From Anaerolineae bacterium (GTDB lineage Bacteria > Chloroflexota > Anaerolineae > Epilineales > JAHCIE01): a DNA stretch of 64,000 bases. Shown in pieces: positions 1 to 62,867 of this stretch. The position numbers and the translations under genes are program-made. The stretch lies in contig JAXLWJ010000004.1 of assembly GCA_046328535.1 (NCBI GenBank), forward strand, positions 87,800 through 151,799. The letters are read 5' to 3'. Under the pieces are notes generated by a model. It worked only from the letters and a program-made list of their open reading frames with translations. It was not told the DNA's origin and searched no databases. Position 1 is the stretch's first letter. Every line of letters starts with the position of its first letter.

Positions 1-95
1 CTGGGAGCGGAGACGCTACTGGGAGTTGCCGCTTCCAAAGAAGGACCGGAAACGGGTGAGTCTGTCGCAATCGTCAATGTGTCTCCTCAATACGG

Positions 96-1823: not shown

Positions 1824-1827
1824 GCTA

Positions 1828-1871
1828 CTTCAGTACCCAGCGCAGGTGTTCCAGGCCGACACGGACGGCGC
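1828..1871. repeat. 44-bp near-duplicate (40/44) of the 3' end of the radical SAM gene (4875-4918), lying in the CgeB-like/GT-C intergenic spacer
   Basis: Read directly. In gene orientation the fragment encodes ...RAVRVGLEHLRWVLK*, versus the radical SAM C-terminus ...RAVRVGLEHLRWALKP*. Confidence 0.5.
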
Positions 1872-1914
1872 GTGATGGCGGCGGGGTCGCCCGCAAGCAG
1901 CGTGGCATGGCTTG

Positions 1915-2931: not shown

Positions 2932-2951
2932 AAGGTCTCCACGGCTTCGAG

Positions 2952-4845: not shown

Positions 4846-4868
4846 TAAGAATAGATCCGAAGTTGTTG

Positions 4869-10306: not shown

Positions 10307-10355
10307 GATCGCTCCTGTAGGTTATGCTTGGGAGGGGTGAGTAGCGCGCGAGACC

Positions 10356-10410
10356 GTAGTAACGACTTGAGTCGTTTCTCAGGCCGCAGAACGACTGAAG
10401 TCGTTACTAC
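10356..10410. repeat. Double-hairpin element A (aacgacttgagtcgtt ... aacgactgaagtcgtt, flanked by gtagta/tactac)
   Basis: Read directly: two CGACT-loop-AGTCG hairpins in an inverted-repeat frame, located in the 133-bp gap between the NusG-like gene and the kinase. Confidence 0.5.
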
Positions 10411-10439
10411 AAAATACGTAACTTATGTATGACGAACCT

Positions 10440-10976
10440 CTAGAACCGCTCGAGGATCTCGGTGTTGACGTCGCAGCGCGTGAACCGGCCCATGACCTCG
10501 ACGAGGATCTGGGCGCGCTCGAAGCCGCTCAGGTGGCCTTCGAACACGGCCTCCAGGTCCTTGAGTGGGCCAGCCGTAATCCGCACCCGGTCGCCGCTCC
10601 GCAGCACGTTCTGCGGCGTGCCGGTCATCTGCCGCACGCGGCGGCGAATGTGCTCGATCATGTCTTGCGGCAGCGGTGTCGGCTCGCCGCCGAAGCTCAC
10701 CACAGTCCGCAGGCCGGGCAGCCACGTCACCTGGGAGATGCCAACTTCGTCGAGGTCGAGGTGGACGAAGCTGTAGCATGCAAACAGCGGCTCTTCCTCC
10801 ATGCGGCGGCGCCGCGCCCGCCACACGGGCATCAGGGGCAGGTAGCTCTCGTGGCCGCGCGCCGCGAGCGCTTCGCTCACCTGGCGCTCAGCGTGGGGCT
10901 TGGTGTAGAGGGCGTACCAGGCGCACTTCGTCGGTTGGGGTTCGGTGGGCCGCGTGATGGCGCGTGCTTGACTCAT
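10440..10976 (-). CDS. NusG-family transcription antitermination paralog (NGN + KOW; LoaP/UpxY/RfaH-like), first gene of the glycan operon
   Basis: NGN domain WYALYTKPHAERQVSEAL...LFACYSFV, and KOW GDRVRITAGPLKDLEAVFEG. The start taken is ATG at 10974-10976 (MSQARAITRP...); the ORF-track start at 11042 is a 22-aa upstream extension. Confidence 0.75.
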   Translation of the reverse strand: MSQARAITRPTEPQPTKCAWYALYTKPHAERQVSEALAARGHESYLPLMPVWRARRRRMEEEPLFACYSFVHLDLDEVGISQVTWLPGLRTVVSFGGEPTPLPQDMIEHIRRRVRQMTGTPQNVLRSGDRVRITAGPLKDLEAVFEGHLSGFERAQILVEVMGRFTRCDVNTEILERF

Positions 10977-11403
10977 GGCCTCTATTCCTACGGCGGTGAG
11001 GAAGGTGGGCGTCGGCGGACCAGGCTCCGCCGATCTGTGCACGAGTGTGTCCAGGTCGGTGCTTCAGTATGGGAGTGGCTCACGGCCACCGCGCTGAACG
11101 ATGCCGGAATGTACGCGAGAACGAAGTCCAACACGCAACTAACAATCAGGCCGAACACTCGGGCAATAACCGGAACTAACGATAGTTAGGGATGGGAACA
11201 GCAGCGCCTCGAGGGGCAGGGGGGATGCCTCTCCGCAATCATTGACGCGGCTGAGTTGCTCTACGTTGGGGGGTTAGAGCGTGCGATTCAGACGGAGGGG
11301 GCGTCGTTTGGACGACGCTGTCCAGGAGTCGGTTAAGCCAAATAGACGTATTGGGTAACTGGCGCTCCCCTCCAGCGCCAGACCCCTTATCGGCGTTCTG
11401 TCC

Positions 11404-11778
11404 TTAACACAGCTTTAAGGACACAATCATAAGTATAGCTCCTGACGCTTTATGAATCGCTTTATGAATCGCTTTAGGTGGCGTGAATACACCTGTGGGG
11501 CTGCAATTGTTGCCTGAGTGTACTGACGGATTGAGCATTTCATACCACCGGGCATAATCCAGGCCACCTCTAAATGTTGTAACCTCTGACGGCGTCTCGC
11601 CCCGCAGTCGGGCCATCGTCTCCCGGTACGCTTCGAGTACTTCAACGTCATACCCATAGGAAATGTTACGGTTGAAGGCGACCGGTTTCATCCACCACAC
11701 GCACGAAGTCCACCCAACACCGCTGGGTGGACTTCGTGGGGAAACGGGACCTGAACCTGGCTGTGGCGCGTCGGCCAT
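11404..11778 (-). CDS. Hypothetical small protein in a low-GC spacer (doubtful)
   Basis: 124-aa ORF in an approximately 50% GC intergenic stretch between copy 1 and the NusG-like gene. It contains a 13-bp tandem repeat (tttatgaatcgc x2, giving KAIHKAIHKA) and is hairpin-rich. It may be non-coding. Confidence 0.2.
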   Translation of the reverse strand: MADAPQPGSGPVSPRSPPSGVGWTSCVWWMKPVAFNRNISYGYDVEVLEAYRETMARLRGETPSEVTTFRGGLDYARWYEMLNPSVHSGNNCSPTGVFTPPKAIHKAIHKASGAILMIVSLKLC

Positions 11779-11811
11779 CGCGCCGCGTATGAAACAACCT
11801 CTGGCTGCTGC

Positions 11812-14800
11812 CTACGGTCGTCTTGCGCCCCTCGCGCCCTGGCCGTCTACCTCAACCGCTTGACCGTGTCCCAGCCCCACCGAATCACGCGCCACATACG
11901 GGAAGTAGAGGCTGTAGCTCTTCTGACCCGGCGTGGTGAGACTCTGCACGCGCAGCGGCGTCTTCAGCGCCTCGACGTTGCCGGCCTTGTCAATGGCGCG
12001 GCTGCGTAGCGCGACCGCGCCGCGCGGGGCGCTGACAGTCGCGGCCCACAGCGTGCCGGCGCCGCCGGTGGTGTCCGCCTTGGCGTCGTCAGGACACAGC
12101 GCGCCGGCCAGCAGGGCCGCCGCCGCCGCGCCGGTCGTGGCGTCCGTCCACGTCTGCCCACCGTCCACGCTGACCTGCGCCTGGGCGATGCCCCAGCCGT
12201 CGGTGGCGTAGCCCCAGGCGAGAATCTGGTCGGGGGCCAGCCCCTGGCACGCCTGGGGAACTGTCGCGCCGGGACGGGGGTAGACGATGTCCGACACGGG
12301 CGCGATGCTGTCCACGGTGACTGTGACCGGCGCGGACGGGGCGCTCACGTTGCCCGCCGCGTCGGTGGCCCGCGCGCGGATCGTGTGCTGGACGCCCTCC
12401 TCAGTGGGCAAGGGCCAGTTGTAGCGCCAGACACGCGGCGCGCCCGGCCGGGGCAGTAGCCCCACGGGCAGGTACGGTCCGGCGACGACCTGCCACGGCC
12501 CGCCGTCTATCGCCACCTCCACCCGCTCGATACCGCCGCGAACGCTCAGCGGCGCCGGATCGTAGGCGCTGCCGCTGATGGTGGCGATCCGGCCCTTGAG
12601 CGCCGCGAAGTCGTCGAGCGCCACGGTGGCCTGCGGCGGCGTATTGTCCACGGTGACGGTCGCCGACACCGGCGCGCTCACCTGGCCGAAGATGTCGTGG
12701 CCGCGCGCCTGGACGACGAACTCGCCGCTGGCCGGTACATCAATCCCCACCTGCCAGCCCAGGTTGGTGAAGATGCCGCCGACCTGGGAGGGTGTCACCA
12801 CCCACGGCCCGTCGTTCACCCGGACTTCGACGAAGCCGAGGCCGGTCTGGTCACTCGCCGTGCCGGTCACCGTTTGCCGCCCGCTACGCATCGTCGCGCC
12901 GACGGGCAGGGCAATGGCAACGCGCGGCGGCTGGTTGTCCACCGCGCGCGTGGCGCTGGATTGGGCCAGGCTGACATCGCCGCTCGCTGTCGCGCTCTTC
13001 ACCGCGGCCGTGACCGTGACCGCCTTGATGCCGGCGACGTTGGCGCCGAGGCCCGCCGTGACGGTGATCGGTGTCTGGGGGCCGGGGGCGAGGTTGCCCA
13101 ATGGAATGAGCCAGCGGCTCGCGGGCGCCTGGGGGGGCAGGCCGTGGATGGACTGGAGGGTTGCGCCGTCGCTGGCGGTGATCTCCAGCGTCAGGTCGGT
13201 CACTGGCACGCGGTCCACGTTGGTCAGACTGAGGCTCCACGGCGCGGCGCTGTTTGGCCCAAGGATGCGGCTCGACCCGCGAGGATTCTGGACACTCAGC
13301 GTCACGTGGCGGCCCTGCGGCTGGCCCGCGTTCGGCGCCGTCGTCGGCGTGATGCTCGTCCAGTGGTAGGCGCTGGTCCACGGGCCGAGCACCGATTGGG
13401 CCGTCGGGAAGACGCTGGCGACGCGGCCGCCGGCGTCGTTGAAGGCCAGCATCCGCACGTCCACGGCCGGGAGCGCGACGCCGAGGTCGCGCCACGGCAG
13501 GGCGATCTCGGTGTCACCCTCCGCGCCCGTTCGCGCCGCGCCGAAGTCGTGCTGCTCCCAGGCGCGGCCGGTCCAGTGGTACACGGCGTTGCCCGAGCCG
13601 CGCAGGGCGACGGCAAAGTCGGCGTTGAACGGTAGGGTCTGGGCCTGGGGGGCGCTCGCCCACAGTTGCGTTGTGCCGCCCGCCCTGGTGTCCAGGTAAA
13701 TGTAGCCCACGCCGTTGACGCCCCACGCCGCGCCGCGCCAGCCGATATACAGGTTGGTCGCGTCGAAGCTGGCCCACAGACCCTGGGACTGCGTCGGACG
13801 CGGGTCCACGTCGAGGCGCTCCGACGCGAGCTTCCACTCGCCGCGCGCCACGTCCATAAAACCGTTGACCTGGATGGACGACTGCCACGCGCCGTCGGCG
13901 TCCTTGGCCGCGCCGCCACCGCTGGCGCCGACGAGCCACGGGCCGAAGTGGCGCACCGTGGTGTTGCCGACCCTGTCCCTGGCGGCCAGGTGGACGTACC
14001 ACGTCCCCGCGCTCGTCAGCTGCGCGGTGTAGCTGGCGCCCGTCACGGCGTCGCCCGTCGTCGGGTTGGTGTCGCTCGTCTGGTCCACTACGGCGATGAC
14101 GGACACCTGCCCACTACCGTCGGTCAGCGGCGGCCACGTCAGGCCCACCGAGGCGGGCGCTGTCAGGTGAGCGCCGGGGCTGGGCTGGAGCTGGGCCTGG
14201 AAGGGCGTCGGCCCCAGGTTATCGGCGACGAAGACGACCGGCTGCACGGTCGCGTTCCCCGCGCGGTCCGTGGCTCGGATGCGGGCCGGGAAGGACGCGG
14301 AATCCGCGCCGCTCGGGACCGTGTAAGCCCACGTCCACGTGTTAGCGGTAAGCGTCGCCGCCGTCCACGTCTTCCCGCCGTCCGCGCTGCCCTCGACCAG
14401 GACCACGCCACTGGTCGCGTCGCCCGTCGTACCCGCGAGGGTGAGCGCGCTCGTGATCACGCCCGTCGGTGGGACGATGGTCACGGTCGGCGCGGCGCTG
14501 TCCTTGATGAGCGTGAGAACCGTGTCACCCGGCGCGCTGCTGCCGGCGGTGCGGCTGGCGCGGAGCGTTATGCTGTGGGAGCCATCGGCGCTGAGCGTGA
14601 TTGGCGCGCTCCAGCGGGTCGCCTGAGCCGTCGGGTTGGCGAGCGTCGCCTTGCCCTGACTGACGCCGTCAACCAGCACCTCGACCTGTCCCTGCCCGTC
14701 GGTGGCGGCGAAGTGAACCGCGCCCGCCAGCGTCAGCGTACCCGACACGACCGCCGCGCCCGGCGTGGGCGACAGCAGGGCCGCCTCGTTGCGCGTCGTG

Positions 14801-20800: not shown

Positions 20801-23800
20801 CCGTCCGTGTCCGCCCTGGTCGGATCGGTGCGGGATACGTAGACCTCGTCGCCGTCGGAGAGGCCGTCGCCGTCGGTGTCCCACTTCGTCGGGTCCGTCC
20901 CATACGTCGCCTCCTGTTTCTGGGTCAGCAGGTCGGCGTCCTTGTCCACGTTCCAGCCGTCGTAGGTGGTATTACCGACGGGGTCCTTGGCGTCCCAGTT
21001 CCACAGGCTGTCCACGTCGCCGGGCAGCACGTCGAAGGCGATGCTCTGGCGCGCGTTGGCAAAGTCCGTCGGGTCGTCGCTTTGCTGCGGGCCGCGGCTG
21101 TAGTTGGTGTCGGCGCTGCAATTGTAGAAGCCGAAGCCGACGCACTTCTGATAGGCCAGATTCGCCTCGACCTGCTGAAGGAACGGGATGAGGAGGTTGC
21201 GGCCCGGCGCCGTCACCTGGAAGCTCAGCTTCATGGTGTTGTGGCAGAGCTTCTTGCCGTTCGCGTCCACCGTGGCGTCGTCGTCGCAGTTCGTGCCGGG
21301 GACGGTGTTCGCGCCGTTGGTCACCGTCGTATTCTGGACGGTGAAGCCGGACGTGTAGGCCGGCGCCTGGCCGTTGTTGAAGACCGGATCGGTGTCAATC
21401 TCGGCGAACGCCCAACTATTCTTGACGTCGCCGAGGTTGCCCGCGCGGCCGTTGAACCAGGTGTTGCCCGCTTTGAACTGCCTGGTGTTGGTGTTGGCCG
21501 TCAGCGTGGTCGTCGTCGCCGTGGTCATGGCGATCTGCGAGCCGCTGACGATGCCGGTGTTCGAGATGGCGCTGGACTGGCTCACGGTCATGTTGGGCGA
21601 GCCGGCGCTCACGTCCGGCTGGTTGACGAATAAGTCCACGAACAGGACGACCTTGGCGAGCCACTCGGTGAGCTTGCTGTAGGCGTCGAGCGGGTTCCAG
21701 TCGCCGGTGATCGCGCCGACGATGATGTACAGGATCAGGAATAACAGCAGGCCGATGAGCGCGCCGGGTCCCGTACTGAAGATGACGCCGATGATGGTGT
21801 CAATGATGAACTGGAACACCGTCAAGAGGGTCGTGGCGATGGCCTGGGCGAGGAGCGAATCGCGCGCCACACCGGACAGCCCACTGGCGGCCGTCGCGTA
21901 CATGGACCAGGTCGTGATGATGAGAATCGCGCTCACGGCGACGCCGATGACGAAGCCCGAGGTCTTCCAGTACTTAGACTCAGCCTCCACCCGCTCTGTG
22001 ATGCCGGTGATGCCCTCCTCCGATTCGGCGCTTTCCTTGTTGACAATCCCAATGGCGACCAGCCGGCGCTCGTCGGCCCCCGACCAGCCCCCAAAGGCCT
22101 CAGACCAGGCTTCCTGGACGCCATACTTCAAGGCGCGGAGGCGAGTCGGGATGGGCGGCCCTGTGCGCGCGAAAATCGCTTCCCCCGCTTCGTCCTCCCC
22201 CGCCACCTCGAGCGTCGGGAGGCGCCAGACCGAGTAGACGCGCACGACTGTGCTAAAGAACTTGAACACAGGCGCGCCGATGAGGATGGCGACGCGAGAG
22301 TAGAACTGCGATGAGCCGATGGCGCTGTTCCAGGCGCGGAACGCCTCCAGCGTCCCCTTGTTCTGGAGATTGGTGACGAGCGAGTCGAGCTGGTACGCCA
22401 GGCGCACGTACTGGGGCATCGTCGTCGCCGCGGCGGCCGGGCGGTTGAAGTCGAGGAAGGCGGCCGGGTCGGCGTTCGCGGCAGCGTAGGGCAGGAGCTG
22501 CCCATCCATGCTCATCACCCGCGACCGGCCGGTGTAGTAGGAACTGAAGAGGAGTAGCGCCAGGCCGCGATACTGGTCCTGGTCGTTGGCGGGGTAGCGC
22601 CGCGCCATCTCGGCCTGCACCTGGCTCAGGTTCAGCGTCTGCCAGCGCGGCTGCCCGGACACGGCGTCCGTGGCGCACGTGTACTGGCCGAGCTGCACGC
22701 GGCGCATCACCAATGAGGGGGCGTTGCCGAGGGGGAAGCTGAAGCCGATGCCGGCCGCGCTGATGACGCTCGGATCGCCGTTCTTGATGGTCACCAGGGG
22801 GCTGCTCGCCTCGAGGTTGCTGCTCGTCTCCTGGTAGGCCAGCGCGAGGGTCGGCGTCAGGGCGGCGGTAGTGGTCGCGGCGCAGACCCCGTAGTTGTCG
22901 TTGAGCAGCTTGGCCGTCGTGGTCATGTTCGTCGTCGCCAGCGCCTCGTCGCGGCTGCCATAGGTGGCGTAGCTCAGGGCGATCTGCGACGGGTCGAGGC
23001 CCCACGTCGGCGTGTAAGGCGCGCTCGCGCCGCTGGCTTTGAAATTCTGGACGATGGTCGGCAGGTCCGGGTTCTGGTAGCCCAGGAAGCTCGGCGCCAG
23101 GCCCGACATGACGTTCATCATCTGCCGCGCTTCATCGTTGACATTGGGCGTCGGCAGCTCGGGCGCTTTCGGCGCGCCAAACTGGGCGACCCCCACGTTG
23201 CTGGTGGCGGACACGGCGAGGCCGGTGACGCGGAACAGGTCCTCGTAGTACGTGGCGACGATGGACTGCTCGGTGGCGACGCTGCAATTGCTGCTGTCCT
23301 GCGCGCCGTTGGGGTCCTTGCAGTTCGCCCAGCTATCCAGGCTCGCCTGAGTCATCCACTGGATGCGGCCGTTCGTCAGATCGAGGCCCTGGCCCACCTC
23401 GGCCGAGGTGAAGGCCAGCCGCGCGCCAAACGCGCTCACCCCGCCGCCGCTGCCGACAGCGGTGAGCGGGACGAGCAGCGTGAAGCTCGCCTTGTCGGTG
23501 GCCGTGATGGCGGCGATGCCGTACTGCGCGCCGAGGCTTGGCTTGACCGGGCTGCTGATTTCCAGCACGGGAATCAGCAGCACGTCCTGAACCGACTTGT
23601 CTAGGTCCTTGATCTGACCCTGGTTGTCGTCCGGCCAGTCCATGTAGCTGAGACCGTAGCGCAGGTGGGCCGTGTTCTTCGGCTGCACCTGAGCATCAAT
23701 ATAGACCACGCTGTTGGTTATCGGCCCGCCGATCTCGATGTCCAGCGCGGGACGATACGGCGGAATGATGAATTTGGTGGGATCGCTGGGGTTGGGGATG

Positions 23801-25416: not shown

Positions 25417-25468
25417 CGGCGTGTCTCCTTCAAAAAGACCTGGCGCTAACGCATCTCAAGACGTGGCT

Positions 25469-25525
25469 CAGTATAACCGTCACGCGTGACAAGCCCGTTT
25501 CAACGGCGCGCGCCACGCGTGACAG
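25469..25525 (-). promoter_or_regulatory. Conserved ~57-bp upstream motif (copy-1 instance), putative promoter/operator shared with the stand-alone module gene
   Basis: About 80% identical to 58580-58637. Contains TGTCACGC direct repeats about 33 bp apart and a TATACT/TATGCT -10-like box downstream in gene orientation. Lies 50-110 bp upstream of the copy-1 start. Confidence 0.45.
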
Positions 25526-25651
25526 ATGCGGACTTTATCTGGTCATCCCCTCCAATAAGAAAGGTTGGTGGTTCATAACGTCTTCCCGCCACTCGTCAGT
25601 CCTCAACTTCCGTGCCTCACGTAATACGTAGGCATATTATGTTGCAATTTG

Positions 25652-25680
25652 TTGCAAATTTTGCATATTTCGTGTAGAAT
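25652..25680 (+). promoter_or_regulatory. Sigma70-type promoter of the AbiL-like operon (TTGCAA-17 bp-TAGAAT); SD GGAGG at 25698-25702
   Basis: Read directly from sequence. AT-rich 190-bp block with a gttgcaa/ttgcaa/ttgcat triple repeat. Canonical hexamers and spacing are unusual for this genome, where other genes lack clear SD or sigma70 boxes. Confidence 0.5.
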
Positions 25681-25709
25681 ATGCCTTAGATTTATGCGGA
25701 GGTATAGCC

Positions 25710-27029: not shown

Positions 27030-27678
27030 CCGCAAAACCCGAAACCGGTCAAGCCGGGGCGACGAGTCAGTCTCGTACACTCGCCCCGGCTACCCCAGCT
27101 TTTCCGATGAGCGCATTTTCATCGTGTGTGAAGGCTCGGTTACGGAGCCGCAGTACTTCCTCGGGCTGCGTCGGTCATGTGACCTGCGCGCGTATCAGGT
27201 CCAGGTCGAAGTAGATGTCCCTAACCCCGTCAAGCTCGTGCAGATTGCACAGAGAGCAGCCCGTTCGCGTCGTGGGCGAACGATAGAATTCAGCCAGGTA
27301 TGGTGCGTCGTGGACGTCGAAGGCCCTGCTCCCACCGCGGAGTTCCATCGGGCCGTTGCGGTTGCCCGAGAGCATAACCTTCACCTTGCCGTCTCCAATC
27401 CATGTTTCGAGTACTGGTATCTGCTCCATTTCCGGGAGACCGATCAGCCGTTCCACAATGCTGAGGAGGTCATCCGCGCCCTTAGGGAACAGAACTGCTT
27501 TCCTGCCTACGACAAAAACTGCAACGCTTTCGAGGCTCTGGCCGACCGCACCGACCTCGCTATCGAACGCGCTGAACGCCTCCTCAAACGCCACGTCGGC
27601 GCCGAAGACTTTCCCAACCCCTCGACCACCGTCTTTCGCCTCGTTCGCAAAATCCAAGACATGTCGAGCGGTCTGTAA
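27019..27678 (+). CDS. RloB-like protein (AbiLii-type partner)
   Basis: 219 aa. IFIVCEGSVTEPQYF (CEG-x-TE-x-YF) and NPCFEYWYLLHF motifs typical of the RloB family. 11-bp overlap with the ATPase gene suggests translational coupling. Confidence 0.8.
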   Translation: MGNSRKTRNRSSRGDESVSYTRPGYPSFSDERIFIVCEGSVTEPQYFLGLRRSCDLRAYQVQVEVDVPNPVKLVQIAQRAARSRRGRTIEFSQVWCVVDVEGPAPTAEFHRAVAVAREHNLHLAVSNPCFEYWYLLHFRETDQPFHNAEEVIRALREQNCFPAYDKNCNAFEALADRTDLAIERAERLLKRHVGAEDFPNPSTTVFRLVRKIQDMSSGL

Positions 27679-27707
27679 TCCGCGAGCTTCAACACCCGTT
27701 CCATCCA

Positions 27708-30700
27708 TCATCTCTGCGCTCCGTACTTGATTGTCGGGAAGTAGAGCGTGTAGGGGCGCGTGGGCGGCGCCGCCGTGTGCTGCACCCGCAGCGGCGGCTG
27801 GAGCGGCGATGGGGCGCCGGCCCGGTCCACCGCCCTGGCCCGTAGCGCGAGCGGGCCATCCGGCGCGGGGACGACGGCGGCCCACAGTGCCGCATTCGCC
27901 TCGGCTTTGGCCGCCGCGCTGCCGCACAACGTGTTCGCCAGCAGCCTGGCCGCCGCCGATCCCACCAGGGCGTCGGTCCACGTCTGCCCGCCGTCCACGC
28001 TGACCTGCACACTGCCGACGCCCCACCCGTCGCGGGCCGTCCCCCACATCAGGATGCTGCCCTGCGGGAAGAGTCCAGGCACGCTTCGGGAACGGTCGCG
28101 CCCGGGCAGAGGGTAATCGAGGGTCGCCGTCGGCGCGACGTTGTCCACCGATCACTGTCTGCCACGCGCTCGGCGCGCCGACACCCGCCGCGTCCGTCGC
28201 GCGGACGCAGGCAGTGCCACGCCCTCCTCCTGCGGCGGACGCCAGGTGAGACGCCACGTTCGTGGGCCAGGCGGCAGCCCGATCATGTGGACGCCAGCGG
28301 GTAAGGCGCTGGGGCGACCCGCCACTCGCCGTCGTCCACCTGCACCTCGGACGCGCCCAATCGCCCCGGCGGTGGGGAACGGGTCCCACCACTGTCCCGA
28401 CCAAGCTCGGCGGACGCGGCGCGCACAGGCGCGGCGGAGGTCAGGGTCGCGGTGGGCGGCGTGTTGTCCACCGTGACCGACGTCGATCCCGGCGCGCTCA
28501 CCTGCCCGAAAACGTCGTAGGCGCGCGCCTGAACGACGAAACTGCCGCTCGCTGGCGCGTCAATGTCAATACCCCAGGCCTGCGACTGGAAGACGCCGCC
28601 GCCGGGTAGCGGGACCGCGCGCCACGCGCCATCCCCCACGCGCGCCTCGACGACGCTCACCCCGACGCATCCCGCGCCGCGTCCCGGTCACTGTCACCGC
28701 CCGCTGCGCACCGTCGCGCCCACCGGCAGGTTGATGCGCACGACCGGCGGGGCGTGGTCAACCGCCACACTCGCCCGCGCCTGCGCGAGGGTCACGTCGC
28801 CGCTCGGCGCGTTCGTCTTCACCGCCGCTGTCAGTGTCACTGCGTCTAGCGGGGCGACACTCGCCGCCACCCGCGCCATCACCGTGATGGGGCGCGCAGT
28901 CCAGGCGGCAGGTCGCCGAGTGGGATCGTCCAGTTCGGGCCGGCGGCTGGCTCGGCGCGCCCTGAACGGGTCGAGCGTCAGGCCCGGCGCTCGCGGCGAT
29001 ATCGAGCGTCACGCCTGTCAGCGGCACGCGGTCGAGGTTGCGGACATCCAGCGTCCAGACGACCCTGGCCCGCCGTGACCAGCGGCGGGGCGGCGCGCGG
29101 GCGGCGCACGCTCACGCTCACGTGGACGCCTTTCGGCTGGCCGTCGTTCGGCGCGGTGGTCGGCGTGATGCCCGCCCGGTGGTAGGCGTCCGTCCACGGG
29201 CCGCGCACCGACTGAGTCGTCGGGAAGACGCTCACCACTCGACCCTGGTCTGCGTCGAACGCCAGGAGGCGGATGTCGGCGGCGGATACGCTCGCGCCGA
29301 GACCGAACCAGGGCAGCGCCGAAGCTCGGTGTCACCGTCCGGCCCGGCGCGCACCGTCCCGGGACTCACGGGCTGCCACGCCGCGCCATCCCACTGCCAC
29401 ACGCCGGGCTGAGGCTGTAGCACGACGACATAGTCGGCGGCAAAGGGCAGTTGCTTGCCCGCGACGGCCTGGGCCGCGCTGCCGTCCGGGCCGGCCCACG
29501 GCGTCGTCGCGCCGCCTGGCCGGGTGTCCAGGTAGACGTAGCCCGTGCCAGCGCCCCAGCGCGCGCCGCGCCAGCCGAGGTAGAACCGCGCCGCGTCGAA
29601 ACTGGCCCCAGGCTCTGGGCGCGGGTCGGGCGCGGGTCACGTCCAGGCGCTCGCTGGCGAGGTCCCACTCGCCGCTGGCGACGTTCATCAGCCCGTCAAC
29701 GATGATAGACGACTGCCAGTCACCTGTTCCCCTTGTAGCGTCCCTTGTAGCCGACCGGCTCTGTGCTGACTGCGCGCTGGTCGGCCCTGCTGACTGCAGC
29801 GCTACGGGTCGCTCCCCTGCTGACTGAAGTCAGCGCTACCTTGAAGTCCTCCTGTGCTCTACGTGGTCTACGCTCTGTGCTGACTGGTCCAGGTATCGCT
29901 TCGGGTATCGCTTCGGACCCGCGCGGCCGTCCCCAGCATGCCACGGCCCGTAGTGGCGCGTCGTCGTGTTGCCGCCGCTGTCCTGCGCCTGGAGGTGGAC
30001 ATACCACGCCCGGCGCCCGGAAGTTGGCGGTGTAGGAGCGGCGGTGAACGCTGCGCCGCCGGCCGGTATCGTGCGGCTGATCTGGTCCACCACGGCGACG
30101 ACCGATGGCTCGCCGCTGCCGTCGTGGAGCGGCGCCCAGGAACAGGCTCGCCGAGGCAGGCGCGGTGGTGGGAGGCGGGGTCGGGCGACGCCGTGGAGAC
30201 GAGGGCGACGGGCCGAGGTTGTCCACCAGGAAGAAGCCGCTCCCGACGAAACGGTTGCCGGCGCGGTCCGTGGCGCGCACCCGCAGCGGGAAGCGCGTGT
30301 AGTCCGCCGAGCGGCGCGTGGTAGACGTAGGTCGGTGTTGTTCACCAGCTCGCTGGCCGGGCCACGTCGCGCCGCCGTCCACGCTGACATCACCGCCGCG
30401 ACCCCGCTCGTCGTGTCGCTGTAGGTCCGTTGAGGATGATCGTGCGCGTGATCGGCTGCGTCGTGGCGCGGATGTCCAGCGTCGGCGGGACATATCTTTG
30501 GTCAGGGTCACGCTGGTGTCCGTCGCCCCGCTAGCGGCGCTGCGGCCGGCTCGCAGGACGATGGTGTGGACGCCCTCGCTCGTCAGCGTGACCCCCTTGC
30601 TCCAGCTCGTGGCCCGCGCCAGCCGTTGTCGAGTGTCGCCATGCCCTGCGAGACGCCGTCCACCGGGACTTCGGCCTGGCCGGCGCCGTCCGTCGCGGCG

Positions 30701-31532
30701 AAGTGAACCGCGCCGGCCAGGGTGAGGGTCGTCGAGACGACGGCGCTGCCCCGGGGGCGGGCGAGGTCAGCGCCGCCTCGTTGCGCGTCGTCGCGACGCT
30801 GACCTGGGCTGTCTGGCTGCGGCCGACGTTGCCGGCGCGGTCCACGGCGATGGCCGTGACGGTGTGCGGGCCGTCGGGGAGGGCGACGGCCTGGCGGTGG
30901 GGTTCGGGCCGAGCGTCTGGGTGGCTGTCACAGCCGCGCCGTCCACGCTGAAGTACACGCGGGCGAGGTTGTTCTGGCTGACGCCGCCCACGGGGATCGT
31001 GTCCGACGCGGCCGCCTCGAGCGCCACGGCCGGCGCGCTCGTGACCAGGCTCGCCGTCGGGGTGATGAGGGTGACCGAGGGCGGTGTGCCGTCGGCGATG
31101 AACGCCGCCCGGAACAGACTCGTCGTCCGCGTGACAGTGTTCCCGACCTCGTCGGCCGGCCGCGTGTACAGGCGGTACAGGCCGTCGCCTGGTAGACGCC
31201 GCCGCCCGCCGCCATGTTCAGCGGCAGTGTCCAGTACGAGCCAACGGCCGGGCGTCGCCGGGGAGGCGTTGCGCCAGGCGGTCGGCGCGGGCATCGTCCT
31301 GGTCGGGCGGAACGCGCTGGCGTCTGGCGCGTAGCTGACGCCGACCTGCACCGCGGCGACGCCGAACTGCCGAGGGCGCACGAGGCGCCCCCCCCTTGCC
31401 GAAGAGCAGGCTCAGCGGCACCGCCAGCAGCCGGCGTAGCCCAGGTCGGCCCGGCCGCCGCCGCCGACGAGACCCGGCTGCCAGTCGCTCGGCGCGACGG
31501 CGTCCGGCGGGCGAGCCTAGAACGGGCTGTAG
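27708..31532 (-). pseudogene. Decayed C-terminal third of giant paralog 2 (Ig-like region plus C-terminal CBM9/DOMON-like module), with 14 or more frameshifts
   Basis: ORF fragments in all three minus frames are homologous in order to the copy-1 C-terminus and, more closely, to the stand-alone module 56085-58238 (e.g. 27708-28148, 28283-28660, 28978-29238, 29332-29688, 30767-31381). Total span 27708-41294 is 13587 bp versus 13605 bp for copy 1. Confidence 0.6.
29723..29916. repeat. 194-bp repeat-rich insertion at the module junction of copy 2, containing hairpin element C
   Basis: It interrupts ...RHYGPWHAGDGRAGP | GDWQSSIIVDG.... It contains tandem 12-13-bp direct repeats (gaagcgataccc x2; gctacaaggggac x2; cagtcagcacagagc x2) and the hairpin gctgactgaagtcagcgctac (29819-29839). 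Its length is not a multiple of 3. Confidence 0.5.
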
Positions 31533-34500
31533 CTAGTCGAGCCGTCGGCAGGGTTCGGGTCCGAACTGCGGGTCCTGGCCCTGGATGCTTGTTGGGTCGA
31601 GCTGGACGGCTCCGCCCGAGTCGCCACCGCTGTTTTGGTAGAACAGGTTGTACGCATTGAAGAGCTGCCCCTGCCCACTGTCTGTGACGCCGACGCCGCC
31701 GTTGTCGGCGAAGATGTTGAAGCGGGCGTGAACCCACGTGCCAGGGTCGGCCAGGATCAGCCCGCCGCCGCTGTTGTTGGCGACGGTGTTGAACAGGAAC
31801 ACGCCGGTCGAGGCGTTGTTGAAGACCGCCGCTGCGCCGCCGCTCGTTTGCAGGATGTTGTGGGTGATGGTGATGGCGTTGGAGTAGCCGGAGACGACGA
31901 CGTTGGCGTTGGCCGCGCCACTGCCCGCGTTTTGCAGCGTGAAGCCCGCGACCTCGACGTTCGTCACGCCGTTGAGGGTCAGGACATTGCCCGCGCCCCC
32001 TGCGTCAATGACGGTCGTCTCAGCGCCCGCGCCCACGAGCCGCACGCCGCTGCGGGGATTGAGCGACTCGGTGTACGTCCCTGGCGCGACGCCGACGGTG
32101 AACACGCCGTCAATCGGCGGGATGTGGTTCACGCCATCCTGGATGGTGGTGAATGCGTCCACGCCCCACTCCAGCCCGTCGTTGAGGCAGGTGGCGCAGT
32201 AGCTTGGCGAGACATACACCGCCGCCTGCGCTGCCTGCACGTAGCCGATGTCTACGCGCGCGCCGGTACCGGGCGGCGTCGGCAGGCTCGGATCGCCCGC
32301 GTCCACCAGCGGCGAGTCGGCCCGGGGGCGGAAGTCGAGGCGGCTGGGGTTCTCGAAGCGCGGGTCGGCGTAGACGTTGCCCTGGCCGGGCGGGTCGTTG
32401 GTCGGCAGCGCCTGGTCCTGGCCGTTGCGCCAGAAGGCGTTGAAGTCGTGGCGGCGGGTCGCCGCGCAGCCCTGGTAACTAAGGGCCGTCCCCGTGTGGT
32501 ACGCGAACACGGTGTCCTCGACGTCGAGGCTGCCGCAGTTGGCCGCCGCCACGCCGTTCACGTTGCTCATGAGGGTGTTGTTGGACAGTGTTGCCAGGGC
32601 GCCGCCCGCCGCGCCGTCAATGGCGACGGCCGTCGCCGTGTTGCGAATGATGGCGCGGGTGATGCTGATCTGCGCGCCCGCGTCAATGCCGAGGCCGTCC
32701 TGGCGGCCGTCGCCGGCCAGGGTGAGCAGCGCCAGGCTCGCGTCCTGCACGCCCTCCGCGCTGACCAGGCTACCGATGGTCGCGGTCGGCGGCGCGAGGA
32801 CTGTCAGGGCTGCGCCACTCCCGAAAATGCGCACGCCGTTGACGAGAGACACGCGCTCGCGGTACAGGCCTGGCTCGACGAGGACGCGCTGCGCGCCGCT
32901 GGCGATGGCCGATTGAATGTCGTTGAACGCCGTCACGTTCCAGGTGTGGCCGTTGTTGGCGCACTTCTCGCAGTAGGTGGGATTGACCCAGACTGGCGGG
33001 TGATACTGGTAGTAGCCCAGGTCGCCGCCGCCGTTGGCCTTGCCGATGGCGGCGGAGCCGGCGGCCAGGCGGAACACCCCGCGCGGCGTGTCGTAGAAGG
33101 CGGCCTGAGTGAGGGTCATGAACGCCGCCGCCGCGCCTGTCGGCGCGCTGGCCCAGTCGGACGCAGCGCCGGCGGGACTGGCGAAGCCGTTGTGGGTATT
33201 GAGGAACACCGTCTGAACGCCGCTGTTCTGCCACCACTGCGGCCGGGGCGCGGCGTTGGGCAGCGCCACCAGCAGGCTATCGCGGAGGTAGACGGCGTTG
33301 ACCAGCGGCGAGGTGTTGCTGAGCAGGCTGATGCCGCCGCCATTGGCGACCAGGGTCGCGTGCCGCACGTCCACGTTGGAGGCGCGCATGTCAATGCCGA
33401 CGCTATTGGGGCGGTCGAGGGACAGCAGGACGTTGTAGATGCGGATGTTGGCCGGGTCGTTGATGTCGGTGGAACCGGGCGCGCCGCCCCCGTTGACCTG
33501 GATAGCGGCGCTGGCGTTGCGGATCGTCAGGCGTTGCACCGTCACGCCCGCGCCGCCCGCGCCGCCGGGCGGGTAGACCTGGAGGCCGACCCCGCCGGCC
33601 GCGTCAATGAACACCGCGTCGGCGTCCGCCCCCTGGAGGGTCAGGTCGTTCTTGCCGGCCGGAATGCTCGCCGGGCCGTAGACGCCAGGGTTGATGTGGA
33701 TCGTGTCGCCCGACATGGCCGCATTCAGGGCGTCCTGGATGGTGGCGAACGCCGTGACGCCCCACATGTAGCCCTCGTTGGGGCAGGTGGCGCAATAGTC
33801 GTCGTCCACCTGGCGCGTGACGACCGCCGCCGCCTTCTGCGCCGCGAGCGGCGCGGCCGTGTTCTCGCCGCGCCCGCTCGTCGGCAGACTTGTCAGCGGG
33901 CGGGGGGCCGTGGCCGGGCCGAGGCTCAGCTCGGCGCGCAAGGCGCGGCGGGCCTCGCGCTTCGCCAGCGAGTCCAGTGCGCCCTGGGCCTGGGACGCGA
34001 TGAGCAGGTCCGATGAGGCGTCGCAGTTGACGTCAGCGCCGGCGGCGAAGGGGGCCGACGCGATCTTGTTGACGCTGGCGAGCTGCGCCTCCACCGGCTG
34101 GTTCTGGGCGAGGTCGGTCGCGCCGAGGACGAGGTAGGCGCGACCGCTGATTGTTCCCAGCACAATATCGTTCTTGCCGTCGGCGTTGACGTCGCCGACG
34201 CCCGCGATGGGGCCATTGGGGGCCGGCGCGGTGTAGGTGAACGTCACGTCCGGCGTCATGTTCGGTCGCCAGCCGGCGGCGCGGCCGTAGGCGATGTGCG
34301 GGGTCGCGCCGTCGCTGTAGGCGAAGTCGGGCAGGCCGTCCCCGTTCACGTCGCCGAGCGGCGCGACTTGCCCCCCAGCGCCGGCCGCGCCGTGGAAGCT
34401 GCCGTTGGCGGCCTGGGTCGGGTTGACGAGCGGCGGCGCCGCATGCGCTCCGTAGGACGGCCCGCCCAGCATGACATAGACGCCGGCCCCGCCGCCGAGG

Positions 34501-41294: not shown

Positions 41295-41350
41295 CGTAAC
41301 ACTCCCTCGAAAATAAGCCTGGGCTGAAGCGGTGGGGCAAGGTGTTGGAC

Positions 41351-41390
41351 CACGAAAGGCGCGAAAGGGACACGAAAAACGCGAAAAAAG
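41351..41390 (-). promoter_or_regulatory. Four direct repeats TTTCG(C/T)G at about 10-bp periodicity, 57-96 bp upstream of the copy-2 start
   Basis: Plus strand reads cacgaaaggc gcgaaaggga cacgaaaaac gcgaaaaaag. In gene orientation this is TTTCGCG-TTTCGTG-TTTCGCG-TTTCGTG, with offsets of 9-11 bp. Confidence 0.35.
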
Positions 41391-41422
41391 AGTTGCTAGG
41401 CATAACAGCGGGGCGTGAAGTG

Positions 41423-41450
41423 GTAGAGACGCGCTATAGCGCGTCTCTAC
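41423..41450. repeat. Perfect 28-bp palindrome gtagagacgcgc-tata-gcgcgtctctac (12-bp stem), between the IS element and copy 2
   Basis: Read directly. No T-run follows. Could be a terminator-like hairpin or a protein-binding site. Confidence 0.45.
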
Positions 41451-41500
41451 GCTGGTGCCGCCTGCGGCGCATCCTCACGGATGAAAGTCGCGCCCCAGAT

Positions 41501-41559
41501 GCCGACTGAAGTCGGCGCTACACATCCCCCGTCTCCTGTAGCGCCGACTTCCAGTCGGC
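41501..41559. repeat. Double-hairpin element B (gccgactgaagtcggcgctaca ... tgtagcgccgacttccagtcggc)
   Basis: Same architecture as element A: two CGACT/AGTCG hairpins within an inverted-repeat frame, with compensatory stem changes. It abuts the IS630 left end. Confidence 0.5.
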
Positions 41560-41590
41560 TCTCCGCAAGGCACGGCGTCGTCGTGGCCCG

Positions 41591-42756
41591 GCGTCGCCGC
41601 CGATTTATGAACTTTAACAAAATAGGCCAGTCATAGACCGACATAGCGCAGCAAATCCGACGAGGCCTCGGCGTACTGGTCGAGCCAGGCTTGAACCAGG
41701 CTCTGTAGGTCGGGCCAGCGATCCGCCAGATCATGCTGATGCAACAACTCTTGGTACAGCTTGCGCCAGACCTTCTCGATGGGGTTCGTCCACGGCGCGT
41801 ACGTCGGCAAGGGCAGCAACAGGATCTTGGTGTTGACCAACGCCGCCAGCACGTCAGGATGGAAGTGGACGGGCCAATTGTCGAGCACAACGAAGATGAG
41901 GTCAACGTCAGGATACGCCGCGTCCAAGGCCTTGAAGTAGCGGATCAAGGTGTGGCGGTCGAACTTGGCGCGTACCAAGTGAACCGTCGCCCGGTTCGCT
42001 CGCATAGAGGGTGCCAGCGATGCGACGCTTGCGCGTGGAGGCAGACCCTGACGGGCATGCGGCTTGTCGCTGCGGCACGGGCATAGCCCTGAGACGCTGG
42101 GCGCACATAAGTCAACTCGTCTGGTAGAGCAGCGCACGCCCTTGCAGGCTCGGCGTGCGCCAGCGCCCGCGCTTGCCCGATGAGGGCCATCTTCTCGTCG
42201 TAGGCCAGGTCGGGCGAGTGGACGTAGCGGCTGGCCACGTTTGTAGTGCACCGAAGCCGCAGGATCTTGTGCACGCCGGGCAATGACAGCGTCTTCAGCC
42301 AGGGTACAGCCTGGCGCAGGGTGCCACCGCGAACGGGCAGGCCGACCAGGCGCGGCGGGTGGTGGATGATCGTCCCTCAGCCTGGGCCTCTCCGCCGTCG
42401 CGTGCTGAGGGGAAAGCGGGCTTGCGCCCGCGTCCCGCACGAATGCGTAAGCCGTCCAGCCCTTCCGCTAAGTAGTGGATCCAGCCTCGAACCGTGTCTT
42501 TGTCGCGCCGCTTCAGCAGACCGTGGGCGGCGATGTCACGGGTGGATTGGCCGCCGATGGACTTGATGATGGCGGCAGCCTGCTCGCGGACATACGGCAG
42601 CGGATGCGTGTCGCGCGTGCGGCGTAGTTCGTCCAGTTGGGTCTCGCCAAGTCGTACTTGAACTTCTTAGGCATTGTCCTCTCCTGCTCAGACGTATGCC
42701 GTTGAGACCCTAAGTGTACTATGACTGGTCTATTTTGTTAAAGTTCATCAATCGGC
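41591..42756 (-). mobile_element. IS630/Tc1-mariner-family insertion sequence (~1.17 kb) with degenerate multi-frameshifted transposase
   Basis: 38-bp imperfect terminal inverted repeats (gccgatttatgaactttaacaaaataggccagtcatag at 41591-41628; reverse complement at 42719-42756). Minus-strand transposase fragments include an HTH region (...RGRKPAFP...) and a DDE C-terminus with DNWPVH and NPIEKVW motifs, spread across 3 or more frames. Confidence 0.75.
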
Positions 42757-42842
42757 GTCTGGTACGGTCAAGCCCGCTCAAGCAGGCTGGCTATACGACG
42801 TCGTTCCCAACCGAGCCTGCTCAGCAGGCTTCGTCCACTCAG

Positions 42843-42863
42843 CCACCGACTTCGAGTCGGTGG
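42843..42863. repeat. Hairpin element D (ccaccgact-tcg-agtcggtgg) in the 3' flank of truncated copy 3, alongside two other perfect hairpins (agcctgc-tca-gcaggct; ccgggc-cgca-gcccgg)
   Basis: Read directly. Same CGACT/AGTCG core as elements A-C. Confidence 0.4.
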
Positions 42864-42962
42864 CGAAGGCGGACGGCAACGCCCCGGACCGGCTTTCATT
42901 GCAGGCACAAGGCATCCGGGCCGCAGCCCGGACCCCTCGCTCCGTTCGGGGTGACAGCGACA

Positions 42963-58238: not shown

Positions 58239-58321
58239 CAACTCCCTATCCTCACGGCCCACCGGCCGCCTGGCCCGCGCCCGGTGAGCCAGGCGGCGCT
58301 GGAATGGCAGGGCAACGGCGC

Positions 58322-58895: not shown

Positions 58896-58957
58896 GGATA
58901 GAGCTCGGATATCCGTTGGCCGAGTTGTGACGTTGCCCCCGCCATTGGGCATGAACT

Positions 58958-62398: not shown

Positions 62399-62416
62399 GG
62401 GGGGAGAGGTGGAACG

Positions 62417-62806: not shown

Positions 62807-62867
62807 TTGCGGCACCGCTCTTGTGTCGTGCGACGGCCGCGCCCAATGGCCCGCTTGTTATTGTGGC

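What the first reader, a model, noticed from the sequence alone, without database searches (positions are those of the whole stretch)
10356..42863. Covarying CGACT-loop-AGTCG hairpin element family at gene and module junctions
At least four instances: A 10356-10410, B 41501-41559, C 29819-29839, D 42843-42863. A and B share one architecture: flank, hairpin 1, spacer, hairpin 2, reverse-complement flank. Their outer stem and flank bases differ (aacgact/agtcgtt with gtagta versus gccgact/agtcggc with gctaca), but the changes are compensatory and preserve pairing. That covariation is the signature of a selected secondary structure in RNA or cruciform DNA. All instances sit at operon or module boundaries: after the NusG-like gene, between the IS and copy 2, inside the copy-2 junction insertion, and after the copy-3 stop. 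Candidate roles are a factor-dependent terminator, an antitermination target, or a REP-like recombination substrate. This is a candidate for a previously undescribed element.
Basis: seen in the sequence. Interest (0 to 1): 0.65.

Follow-up and report, generated by a model that had tools for sequence, protein, structure and literature searches.

The report
GTAG-tagged REP elements in Anaerolineae
The hairpins are real and they covary, but they are ordinary GTAG-tagged repetitive extragenic palindromes (REPs), a known class of small mobile DNA linked to RAYT transposases, seen here in an Anaerolineae genome where this class has hardly been described.

Summary
CGACT-N2-4-AGTCG occurs 5 times against 0.19 expected, and the window has six 7-10 bp GACT/AGTC hairpins.

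Five of the six hairpins (A1, A2, B1, B2, C) carry an unpaired GTAG one base from the stem foot. That is the signature of GTAG-tagged REPs.
- A is a 55-nt inverted dimer with the tags outside.
- B is an inverted dimer with the tags inside, so A and B do not share one architecture.
- C is one intact unit in a degenerate REP cluster. In a sister strain that site holds a clean dimer lying in frame in a giant-gene linker.
- D has no tag. It belongs to a different three-hairpin dispersed repeat.

The same units are multi-copy in related Anaerolineae MAGs and several other phyla, and they are mostly extragenic. The three outer stem pairs covary. The 21-nt B1 sequence flanks RAYT (Y1 transposase) genes in three other contigs. 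Orthologous NusG-GHMP spacers in three relatives lack A, so it is an insertion, not an operon-specific regulatory site.

No RAYT lies in the window. The source genome could not be scanned.

Verdict: a new member of a known kind, of low interest.

The parts
10356..10410 (.). Element A. A REP dimer with the GTAG tags outside ('HH' in Di Nocera's terms, REPIN-like). It consists of GTAG-T-AACGACT-TG-AGTCGTT (10356-10376, + strand), the spacer TCTCAGGCCGCAG, and GTAG-T-AACGACT-TC-AGTCGTT (10410-10390, - strand).
   Evidence: The sequence and scans are. It folds as one 20-bp hairpin at -33.6 kcal/mol, z -5.0. A near-identical 55-nt copy, spacer included, lies at L063:6210-6264 of Anaerolineae MAG STL-CHL21 with unrelated flanks. 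It is absent from the orthologous spacer in L235, L236 and L237. Short-read contigs of the same organism start 1 nt or 14 nt inside its outer end.
41501..41559 (.). Element B. A REP dimer with the GTAG tags inside ('TT'). B1 is GTAG-C-GCCGACT-TC-AGTCGGC (41521-41501, - strand). B2 is GTAG-C-GCCGACT-TCC-AGTCGGC (41538-41559, + strand).
   Evidence: The sequence and scans are. It folds as one long hairpin at -47.3 kcal/mol, z -6.7. B1 is identical over 21 of 21 nt to a REP flanking a RAYT gene in L074.
29819..29839 (-). Element C. An intact REP unit, GTAG-C-GCTGACT-TC-AGTCAGC.
   Evidence: The sequence and scans are. The same unit is present in sister-strain contigs L001 and L002.
29747..29893 (-). 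A degenerate REP-derived cluster around C. Fragments lie at 29747-29759, 29765-29785, 29789-29805 and 29879-29893. The cluster sits in the linker between the main body and the C-terminal module of giant gene copy 2.
   Evidence: Copy 2 carries about 175 extra nt here relative to copy 1 13887-13935. In L001 and L002 the site holds a compact tags-outside heterodimer, which is read in frame as ...VALTSVSTEPTKVGAT....
41423..41450 (.). A second GTAG-tagged palindrome class with a tag at both ends: GTAG-AGACGCGCT-AT-AGCGCGTCT-CTAC.
   Evidence: It was found and folds at -23.7 kcal/mol, z -5.1. Relatives lie at L056:3538-3565 and L031:3678 in STL-CHL21. In L056 it again sits next to a GCCGACT unit.
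42842..42864 (-). Element D. A 10-bp hairpin, GCCACCGACT-TCG-AGTCGGTGGC, with no GTAG tag. It is not a member of the REP family.
   Evidence: The sequence and scans are. It folds at -29.4 kcal/mol, z -5.5.
42766..42885 (-). A three-hairpin composite dispersed repeat that contains D, together with AGCCTGCT..AGCAGGCT (42814-42830) and AGCCCGCT..AGCAGGCT (42771-42788).
   Evidence: It is 86% identical over 71 nt to L032:4850-4919 (STL-CHL21). There it also follows a stop codon, of an unrelated gene whose product resembles a CoA-transferase by my reading, not by a family scan.
41598..42757 (-). An IS630-family insertion sequence lying between the D composite and dimer B. It is context for the finding, not part of the family.
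   Evidence: It has 39-nt terminal inverted repeats that are 95% complementary. Its ORF 41631-42440 matches the DDE_3 domain.

Best explanation
A, B and C are GTAG-tagged repetitive extragenic palindromes (REPs). The unit is 21-22 nt: an unpaired GTAG, one free base, a 7-bp stem with an invariant GACT/AGTC inner half and three freely covarying outer pairs, and a 2-3 nt loop that is mostly TC or TT.

The units occur singly or as inverted dimers. A has its tags outside and is REPIN-like. B has its tags inside. Each dimer can fold into one long hairpin.

By analogy with characterised REP systems, the hairpin plus GTAG on single-stranded DNA is the recognition and cleavage site of a RAYT (an HUH/Y1 tyrosine transposase). 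The RAYT is encoded elsewhere in the genome and itself sits between two such REPs. The dispersed copies are non-autonomous elements mobilised in trans. Stem covariation reflects subfamilies that must keep the hairpin.

Shown here: the anatomy, the tag, the dimer types, the covariation, dispersal in relatives and other phyla, the extragenic bias, the association of the identical REP with RAYT genes, and presence/absence at orthologous sites.

Inferred: that a RAYT exists and acts in this genome, and any secondary effect on transcripts, such as 3'-end protection or attenuation.

D is a separate untagged hairpin within another dispersed composite repeat. It sits after stop codons and may act like a terminator, but that is not shown.
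For: The tag:
- GTAG lies one base from the stem foot in 5 of 6 hairpins.

Copy number in other genomes:
These include 14 loci of Anaerolineae MAG STL-CHL21, 16 loci of Anaerolineales MAG binchicken_co60_4, many Verrucomicrobiota MAGs, Stenotrophomonas and Neolewinella.
- The A-type GTAGTAACGACT-N2-3-AGTCGTT gave at least 120 metagenome stretches.
- Among neighbouring units there, 25 pairs have tags outside, 2 have tags inside and 7 are tandem. Twelve of the 25 are single hairpins tagged at both ends.

Relationship to STL-CHL21:
- It is a close relative of the source. Its GHMP kinase is 91% identical and part of the gene order is shared.
- It carries the 55-nt A dimer at another locus.

Covariation:
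- Of 52 units not fixed by the search patterns, 25 are fully Watson-Crick in the three free pairs, against 1 in 64 expected. There are eight complementary stem types.
- In the pair count, 95.8% of cells are paired and 0 of 500 shuffles reach the observed score.

Extragenic bias:
- Only 3 of 22 and 6 of 16 units lie in coding-like frames, although those frames cover 84% and 81% of the bases.

RAYT association (REPtrons):
- A Y1_Tnp ORF (Pfam 30.3 bits; best NCBIfam match REP_Tyr_transpos) is flanked by inverted GTAGCGCCGACTT(C/T)AGTCGGC in L074 and L234. In L233 the downstream flank is cut off by the contig end.
- A covarying GCCGGCT variant flanks the homologues in L111 and L112.

Empty sites and strain variation:
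- L235, L236 and L237 lack A.
- Element C differs between strains.

Literature:
- The definitions of the class match.
Against: - No RAYT gene lies in the 64-kb window.
- None was found in the 30 Anaerolineae loci or in the 120 metagenome loci, 675 kb in total.
- The source genome could not be scanned, so neither its copy number nor a cognate RAYT is established.
- 42 kb of relatives' DNA chosen through a protein, not through the repeat, holds no unit. Copy numbers may therefore be tens, not hundreds.
- The RAYT loci found are in a MAG labelled Planctomycetota and in contigs of unknown taxonomy, not in Anaerolineae.
- The inner four stem pairs were fixed by my search patterns, so they say nothing about covariation.
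Confidence: 0.9

Rival explanations
1. The hairpins are operon-specific RNA regulatory elements. They would be terminators, attenuators, or targets of the NusG paralogue, controlling the polysaccharide operon and the giant surface-protein genes.
For: - A lies between the NusG-like gene and the downstream operon.
- The dimers form very stable hairpins on the transcribed strand.
- G-U pairs are commoner on the tagged strand: 15 against 3.
- The literature reports that REPs can stabilise or end transcripts.
Against: - A is missing from the orthologous spacer in three relatives that keep the NusG-GHMP gene pair.
- The same 55-nt dimer and the same units occur next to unrelated genes and in other phyla.
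- There is no T run after any stem, and no terminator-like site in 10200-11900.
- There is no Rfam match.
- At most this is a secondary effect of a REP.
Confidence: 0.05
2. The elements are MITEs or remnants of a conventional insertion sequence, for instance debris of the neighbouring IS630 or the ends of an IS200/IS605 element.
For: - An IS630 element lies 38 nt from B and next to the D composite.
- IS200/IS605 ends also carry subterminal hairpins recognised by Y1 transposases (established knowledge; PMC6006769 is listed).
Against: - The IS630 terminal repeats (CGCCGATTTATGAAC...) are unrelated to the hairpins.
- No target-site duplication flanks A or B.
- The units are 21-22 nt, far shorter than MITEs.
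- The associated gene is RAYT-type and is flanked by REPs, not a TnpA/TnpB unit.
Confidence: 0.03
3. The palindromes are chance or compositional products of a 70% GC genome, or arise from a restriction-modification word bias.
For: The genome is GC-rich and contains many palindromes.
Against: - There are 5 matches against 0.19 expected.
- The GTAG tag sits at a fixed offset in 5 of 6 hairpins.
- Units are identical across genomes.
- Covariation exceeds all shuffles.
Confidence: 0.01

Closest known systems
GTAG-tagged REP super-family (Di Nocera, De Gregorio & Rocco 2013, PMC3733652), including the S. maltophilia SMAG repeats
   Same: - An unpaired GTAG at one end, a 6-9 bp stem and a 2-3 nt loop fitting TY.
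- Subfamilies with complementary stem changes.
- HH dimers (tags outside), often with conserved spacers, and TT dimers (tags inside).
- Dimers that fold into one large stem-loop.
- A mostly intergenic position after coding regions.
- Occasional in-frame intragenic dimers encoding 20-30 aa.
- RAYT genes flanked by the repeats.
   Different: In Chloroflexi that survey names only Thermomicrobium roseum GTAG-23, which is clustered in a few blocks. Here the host is an Anaerolineae MAG and the copies are dispersed. I could not see the paper's Figure 1, so I cannot assign the units to one of its 24 numbered families.
Stenotrophomonas REP class SM6, GGTAGAGTCGACTGTTAGTCGACT (Nunvar et al. 2013, PMC3686654)
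   Same: A GTAG tag, one free base, and a 7-bp stem ending in CGACT/AGTCG. Stenotrophomonas genomes also hold GTAGCGCCGACTGTTAGTCGGC, which has the same tag and stem as B.
   Different: The loop is GTT rather than TC/TT, the outer stem is GTC rather than GCC, AAC or GCT, and the host is a gammaproteobacterium.
REPINs (REP doublets forming hairpins) and their RAYTs, as described for Pseudomonas fluorescens; E. coli BIMEs and TnpA-REP
   Same: Two inverted REPs with a short spacer behave as one unit. The A dimer, spacer included, recurs in another genome at another locus. The RAYT sits between inverted REPs.
   Different: No RAYT has been found in this genome. The REPtrons found here carry an extra inner hairpin (GCGGACT-TC-AGTCCGC) that is not dispersed. 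The units are shorter than E. coli REPs.

Membership tests
GTAG-tagged REP / RAYT system | Short palindromic stem-loop of 20-40 bp, with a 6-9 bp stem and a short loop | tested here: met
   The stems are 7 bp and the loops 2-3 nt, giving units of 21-22 nt.
GTAG-tagged REP / RAYT system | Unpaired GTAG (or a close variant) at one end of the palindrome | tested here: met
   A1, A2, B1, B2 and C all have GTAG one base from the stem foot. D does not, so D is excluded.
GTAG-tagged REP / RAYT system | Many dispersed copies per genome | tested here: inconclusive
   - The source genome was not available.
- There are 5 units in 64 kb.
- Short-read contigs of the organism break at A.
- 42 kb of relatives' DNA chosen without regard to the repeat holds none.
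GTAG-tagged REP / RAYT system | Predominantly extragenic | tested here: met
   Only 3 of 22 and 6 of 16 units lie in coding-like frames, which cover 84% and 81% of the bases. A and B are intergenic in the window. C is a linker insertion.
GTAG-tagged REP / RAYT system | Inverted dimers (HH/TT) that can fold into a larger hairpin | tested here: met
   A has its tags outside and B has them inside. Both fold as a single long hairpin. In metagenome loci, 25 pairs have tags outside and 2 have them inside.
GTAG-tagged REP / RAYT system | Subfamilies that differ by complementary stem changes | tested here: met
   There are eight complementary outer-stem types. In the pair count, 95.8% of cells are paired, 3 pairs change on both sides, and 0 of 500 shuffles reach the observed score.
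GTAG-tagged REP / RAYT system | A RAYT gene flanked by the same REPs (REPtron) in the same genome | not testable with these tools
   - This is met in other genomes. L074 and L234 carry the identical REP on both sides of a Y1_Tnp/RayT homologue, and L233 shows it upstream before its contig ends.
- L111 and L112 carry a covarying variant.
- There is no RAYT in the window or in the Anaerolineae loci held.
- The whole source genome could not be searched.
GTAG-tagged REP / RAYT system | Mobility, shown as presence/absence at orthologous sites | tested here: met
   A is absent from the NusG-GHMP spacer of L235, L236 and L237. The C site differs between the window and strains L001 and L002.
Intrinsic (Rho-independent) terminator | GC-rich hairpin followed directly by a T/U run | tested here: not met
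   There is no terminator-like site in 10200-11900. No T run follows A, B, C or D on either strand.
MITE | Terminal inverted repeats matching an IS, with target-site duplications | tested here: not met
   The IS630 terminal repeats are unrelated to the hairpins. No direct repeats flank A or B.
Any curated Rfam RNA family | A covariance-model match at the gathering score | tested here: not met
   There are no matches anywhere in the window.

The most novel reading that the evidence does not exclude
The identical tag-plus-stem GTAG-C-GCCGACT...AGTCGGC, and a clade of RAYTs flanked by it, appear in genomes labelled as five or more phyla: Chloroflexota, Planctomycetota, Verrucomicrobiota, Bacteroidota, Ignavibacteria and Gammaproteobacteria. 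The unit is multi-copy in several of them. This could mean horizontal spread of REPtrons, which would run against my recollection (not checked here) that RAYTs are mostly inherited vertically.

In this lineage, REP dimers also insert in frame into the linker of giant surface-protein genes, at the very point where the paralogues differ. Copy 1 is fused there. Copy 2 is interrupted by REPs. Copy 3 ends there and is followed by hairpin repeats and an IS. REPs may therefore serve as breakpoints for module shuffling or gene fission.
Probability: 0.2. Interest if true: 0.45.

Novelty: new member of a known kind. Interest (0 to 1): 0.18.

Why it matters
- It removes a false 'new element' lead. It also explains several oddities of the window: hairpins at gene junctions, the insertion in copy 2, and short-read contigs that break at A.
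- It adds Anaerolineae to the hosts of GTAG REPs. It shows two stem subfamilies, and a second tagged palindrome class, coexisting in one lineage.
- The wider value is limited. Two points could interest people who work on REP/RAYT evolution: the cross-phylum identity of the unit, and the in-frame REP dimer in a giant adhesin-like gene.

Tried and rejected
- **Exact-protein look-up of the NusG-like ORF.** It found nothing, probably because the called start differs.
- **RAYT search.** A regex and tblastn for RAYT in the window, in 110 genome and assembly loci and in 120 metagenome loci found only the L074 copy. I therefore could not link a RAYT to the Anaerolineae hosts or to the A-type (AAC) stem.
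- **Treating D as a degenerate family member.** I rejected this. D has no GTAG. Its CCAC/GTGG lies inside the stem and in the wrong polarity. It also travels with two other hairpins as a separate composite.
- **Treating the REPtron inner hairpin GCGGACT-TC-AGTCCGC as part of the dispersed unit.** I rejected this. It occurs only at RAYT flanks.
- **Rfam** gave no match.
- **Whole-genome copy counts** were not possible.
Full report
**1. The observation**

The four sites are as described. CGACT-N2-4-AGTCG occurs 5 times in 64 kb against 0.19 expected, and 0 of 100 dinucleotide shuffles reach 5. Extending stems around GACT...AGTC gives six hairpins of 7-10 bp:

| Hairpin | Coordinates | Sequence |
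|---|---|---|
| A1 | 10361-10376 | AACGACT-TG-AGTCGTT |
| A2 | 10390-10405 | AACGACT-GA-AGTCGTT |
| C | 29819-29834 | GCTGACT-GA-AGTCAGC |
| B1 | 41501-41516 | GCCGACT-GA-AGTCGGC |
| B2 | 41543-41559 | GCCGACT-TCC-AGTCGGC |
| D | 42842-42864 | GCCACCGACT-TCG-AGTCGGTGGC |

C is TGACT/AGTCA, not CGACT/AGTCG.

**2.

Read with the tag at the 5' end, five of the six hairpins are GTAG, one free base, a 7-bp stem, a 2-3 nt loop, then the returning stem.

- In A the two tags face outwards.
- In B the two tags face inwards.
- A and B are therefore two different dimer types, not one architecture.
- D has no tag.

As single strands, A and B fold best as one long hairpin each (-33.6 and -47.3 kcal/mol on the minus strand, z -5.0 and -6.7). 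D folds into an extended imperfect hairpin (-29.4 kcal/mol). No stem is followed by a T run. Rfam has no match.

**3. Gene context**

Almost all genes in the window are on the minus strand.

- A lies 30 nt after the stop of a NusG-like gene (10440-11042) and 50 nt before a GHMP kinase gene that opens a sugar and polysaccharide operon.
- B lies in the spacer before giant gene copy 2. It is 38 nt from an IS630-family element (41598-42757) that has 39-nt terminal repeats.
- The three giant paralogues encode surface-type proteins. Copy 1 shows Big_13, TSP3, FG-GAP and beta-helix domains.
- C lies in a roughly 175-nt insertion of copy 2 relative to copy 1 13887-13935. This is the linker before the C-terminal module.
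- Copy 3 stops at the same linker, and D follows 98 nt later.

**4. Copies elsewhere**

It found repeated hits within single genomes: 14 loci of Anaerolineae MAG STL-CHL21, 16 loci of Anaerolineales MAG binchicken_co60_4, several Verrucomicrobiota MAGs, Stenotrophomonas species and Neolewinella.
- STL-CHL21 also holds the AAC-stem type. At L063:6210-6264 it has a 55-nt tags-outside dimer almost identical to A, spacer included, with unrelated flanks.
There, 25 neighbouring pairs have tags outside, 2 have tags inside and 7 are tandem. Twelve of the 25 are single hairpins tagged at both ends.
- STL-CHL21 is a close relative of the source. Its GHMP kinase is 91% identical and part of the gene order is shared. 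The 100% identical protein is annotated in an NCBI Anaerolineae MAG.

**5. Covariation**

- Among 52 units not fixed by my search patterns, 25 are fully Watson-Crick in the three free outer pairs, against 1 in 64 expected. There are eight complementary stem types.
- On 27 distinct units, 95.8% of cells pair, three pairs change on both sides, and no shuffle or slid control comes close.
- The inner four pairs were fixed by the pattern and carry no information.
- G-T pairs are commoner on the tagged strand (15) than on the opposite strand (3). This fits folding of that strand, although related copies may inflate the count.

**6. Extragenic bias and mobility**

- In the two Anaerolineae MAGs only 3 of 22 and 6 of 16 units lie in coding-like open frames, which cover 84% and 81% of the bases.
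- The orthologous NusG-GHMP spacer in STL-CHL21 (L236), a Logan contig (L237) and a third MAG (L235) lacks A altogether.
- Short-read contigs of the window's own organism start 1 nt (L238, L239) or 14 nt (L240) inside the outer end of A, as expected at a repeat.
- At C, sister-strain contigs L001 and L002 carry a clean 47-nt tags-outside heterodimer: GTAG-C-GCCGACT-TT-AGTCGGC, then tctgt, then GCTGACT-GA-AGTCAGC-G-CTAC. It is read in frame within an uninterrupted ORF of at least 1367 aa.
- The window has an expanded, partly degenerate cluster at the same place.

**7. Link to a transposase**

- In L074, a MAG labelled Planctomycetota, a 200-aa ORF lies between ileS and gatC. It matches Y1_Tnp at 30.3 bits against a cut-off of 23.
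- Its best NCBIfam match is REP_Tyr_transpos at 77.4 bits against a cut-off of 80, so it falls just short.
- It has 957 homologues, many named RayT.
- It is flanked by inverted GTAGCGCCGACTTCAGTCGGC, identical to B1. Each flank also carries an inner untagged hairpin, GCGGACT-TC-AGTCCGC.
- Homologues at 73% and 61% identity (L233, L234) have the same flanks, though the L233 contig ends before the downstream outer unit. Homologues at 64% and 54% (L111, L112) have a covarying GCCGGCT version.
- The inner hairpin occurs only at these genes.
- No RAYT is in the window or in the Anaerolineae loci held.

**8. Comparison with the literature**

Di Nocera et al. 2013 define GTAG-tagged REPs by these features:

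- 6-9 bp stems and 2-3 nt loops, often TY;
- subfamilies with complementary stem changes;
- HH dimers (tags outside, spacers often conserved) and TT dimers (tags inside);
- dimers that fold as one stem-loop;
- a position mainly after coding regions;
- occasional in-frame intragenic dimers encoding 20-30 aa;
- RAYT genes flanked by the repeats.

The only Chloroflexi host they name is T. roseum. Nunvar et al. 2013 list the Stenotrophomonas class SM6, GGTAGAGTCGACTGTTAGTCGACT. Every feature I could test fits. The one I could not test is a RAYT in the same genome.

**9. Element D**

D is not tagged. It is the first of three hairpins in a roughly 110-120 nt composite (42766-42885). The composite recurs, 86% identical over 71 nt, at L032:4850-4919 in STL-CHL21. 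There it again lies just after a stop codon, of an unrelated gene whose product looks like a CoA-transferase by my reading, not by a family scan. It is a separate dispersed repeat. A terminator-like role is possible but not shown.

**10. Verdict**

A, B and C are ordinary GTAG-tagged REPs: one tags-outside dimer, one tags-inside dimer, and one unit in a cluster. They are new members of a known kind, found in Anaerolineae. The covariation is real, and it is the usual REP subfamily pattern. The operon-specific regulatory readings are not supported. Interest is low. The residual points of interest are the cross-phylum identity of the unit with its RAYT clade, and the REP dimer sitting in frame at the module linker of the giant genes.

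Noticed in passing
window 25710-27678 (+): A two-gene AbiL-type defence pair sits between giant gene copies 1 and 2, in a stretch of lower GC (about 60% against about 70%). It comprises AbiLi (AAA_21 ATPase, PADLOC E = 4e-103) and AbiLii (RloB-like, E = 2e-29), as shown.
   Followed up: partly
window 41423-41450; L056:3538-3565; L031:3678: A second GTAG-tagged palindrome class, tagged at both ends: GTAG-AGACGCGCT-AT-AGCGCGTCT-CTAC. In both the window and STL-CHL21 it lies next to a GCCGACT unit. STL-CHL21 also has a third class, GTAG-GGGCAGGTT-TGA-AACCTGCCC-CTAC.
   Followed up: partly
window 42766-42885; L032:4850-4976: A three-hairpin composite repeat of about 110-120 nt contains D. It occurs after the stop codons of unrelated genes in two related genomes. 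The IS630 element abuts it in the window.
   Followed up: partly
window 22382-31881 versus L001; window 58854-63116 versus L005: The window differs from short-read contigs of the same or a sister strain by 60 indels, mostly of 1-2 nt, in 9.4 kb of the giant-gene region. Of these, 44 lie in homopolymer context. There are no indels in 4.3 kb outside the paralogues. L001 has an intact ORF where the window is frameshifted. The fragmented ORFs of copies 2 and 3 may therefore be assembly errors rather than pseudogenes.
   Followed up: partly
L001:7371-7417 (corresponds to window about 29750-29840): In the sister strain a REP heterodimer lies in frame inside the giant gene, within an insert that reads ...TAARSEAIPEAIPVALTSVSTEPTKVGATRDATRGTG... 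in place of copy 1's ASGGGAAKDADGA linker. Copy 3 ends with a stop codon at the same linker.
   Followed up: partly
window 11812-58472 (-): Three tandem paralogous giant genes encode surface-type proteins; copy 1 (4534 aa) has Big_13, TSP3, FG-GAP and beta-helix domains. The C-terminal module of about 650 aa is fused in copy 1 and separated by REPs in copy 2. For copy 3 it is present as a separate ORF upstream of the gene (56085-58472), as shown.
   Followed up: partly
window 41598-42757: An IS630-family element has 39-nt terminal inverted repeats. Its longest ORF (269 aa) matches only the C-terminal DDE_3 part, so the transposase may be frameshifted or decayed.
   Followed up: no
L074:5976-6681; L233; L234: REPtrons of this family have a two-hairpin flank on each side: the outer GTAG-tagged unit and an inner untagged GCGGACT-TC-AGTCCGC. 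The inner hairpin is not dispersed with the REPs. In L074 and L111 the REPtron sits directly after ileS.
   Followed up: partly
window 1-6000: The GC content is lower (58-62%) over a block of glycosylation genes: PMT-like mannosyltransferase, glycosyltransferase, DegT aminotransferase and PglD-like acetyltransferase. This looks like a variable part of the polysaccharide locus.
   Followed up: no
L236 (STL-CHL21) versus the window: The gene order around the NusG-like gene differs between the relatives. In STL-CHL21 a BTAD/TPR regulator lies directly upstream of NusG on the same strand. In the window its counterpart (58958-62398) lies beyond the three giant genes and on the opposite strand.
   Followed up: no
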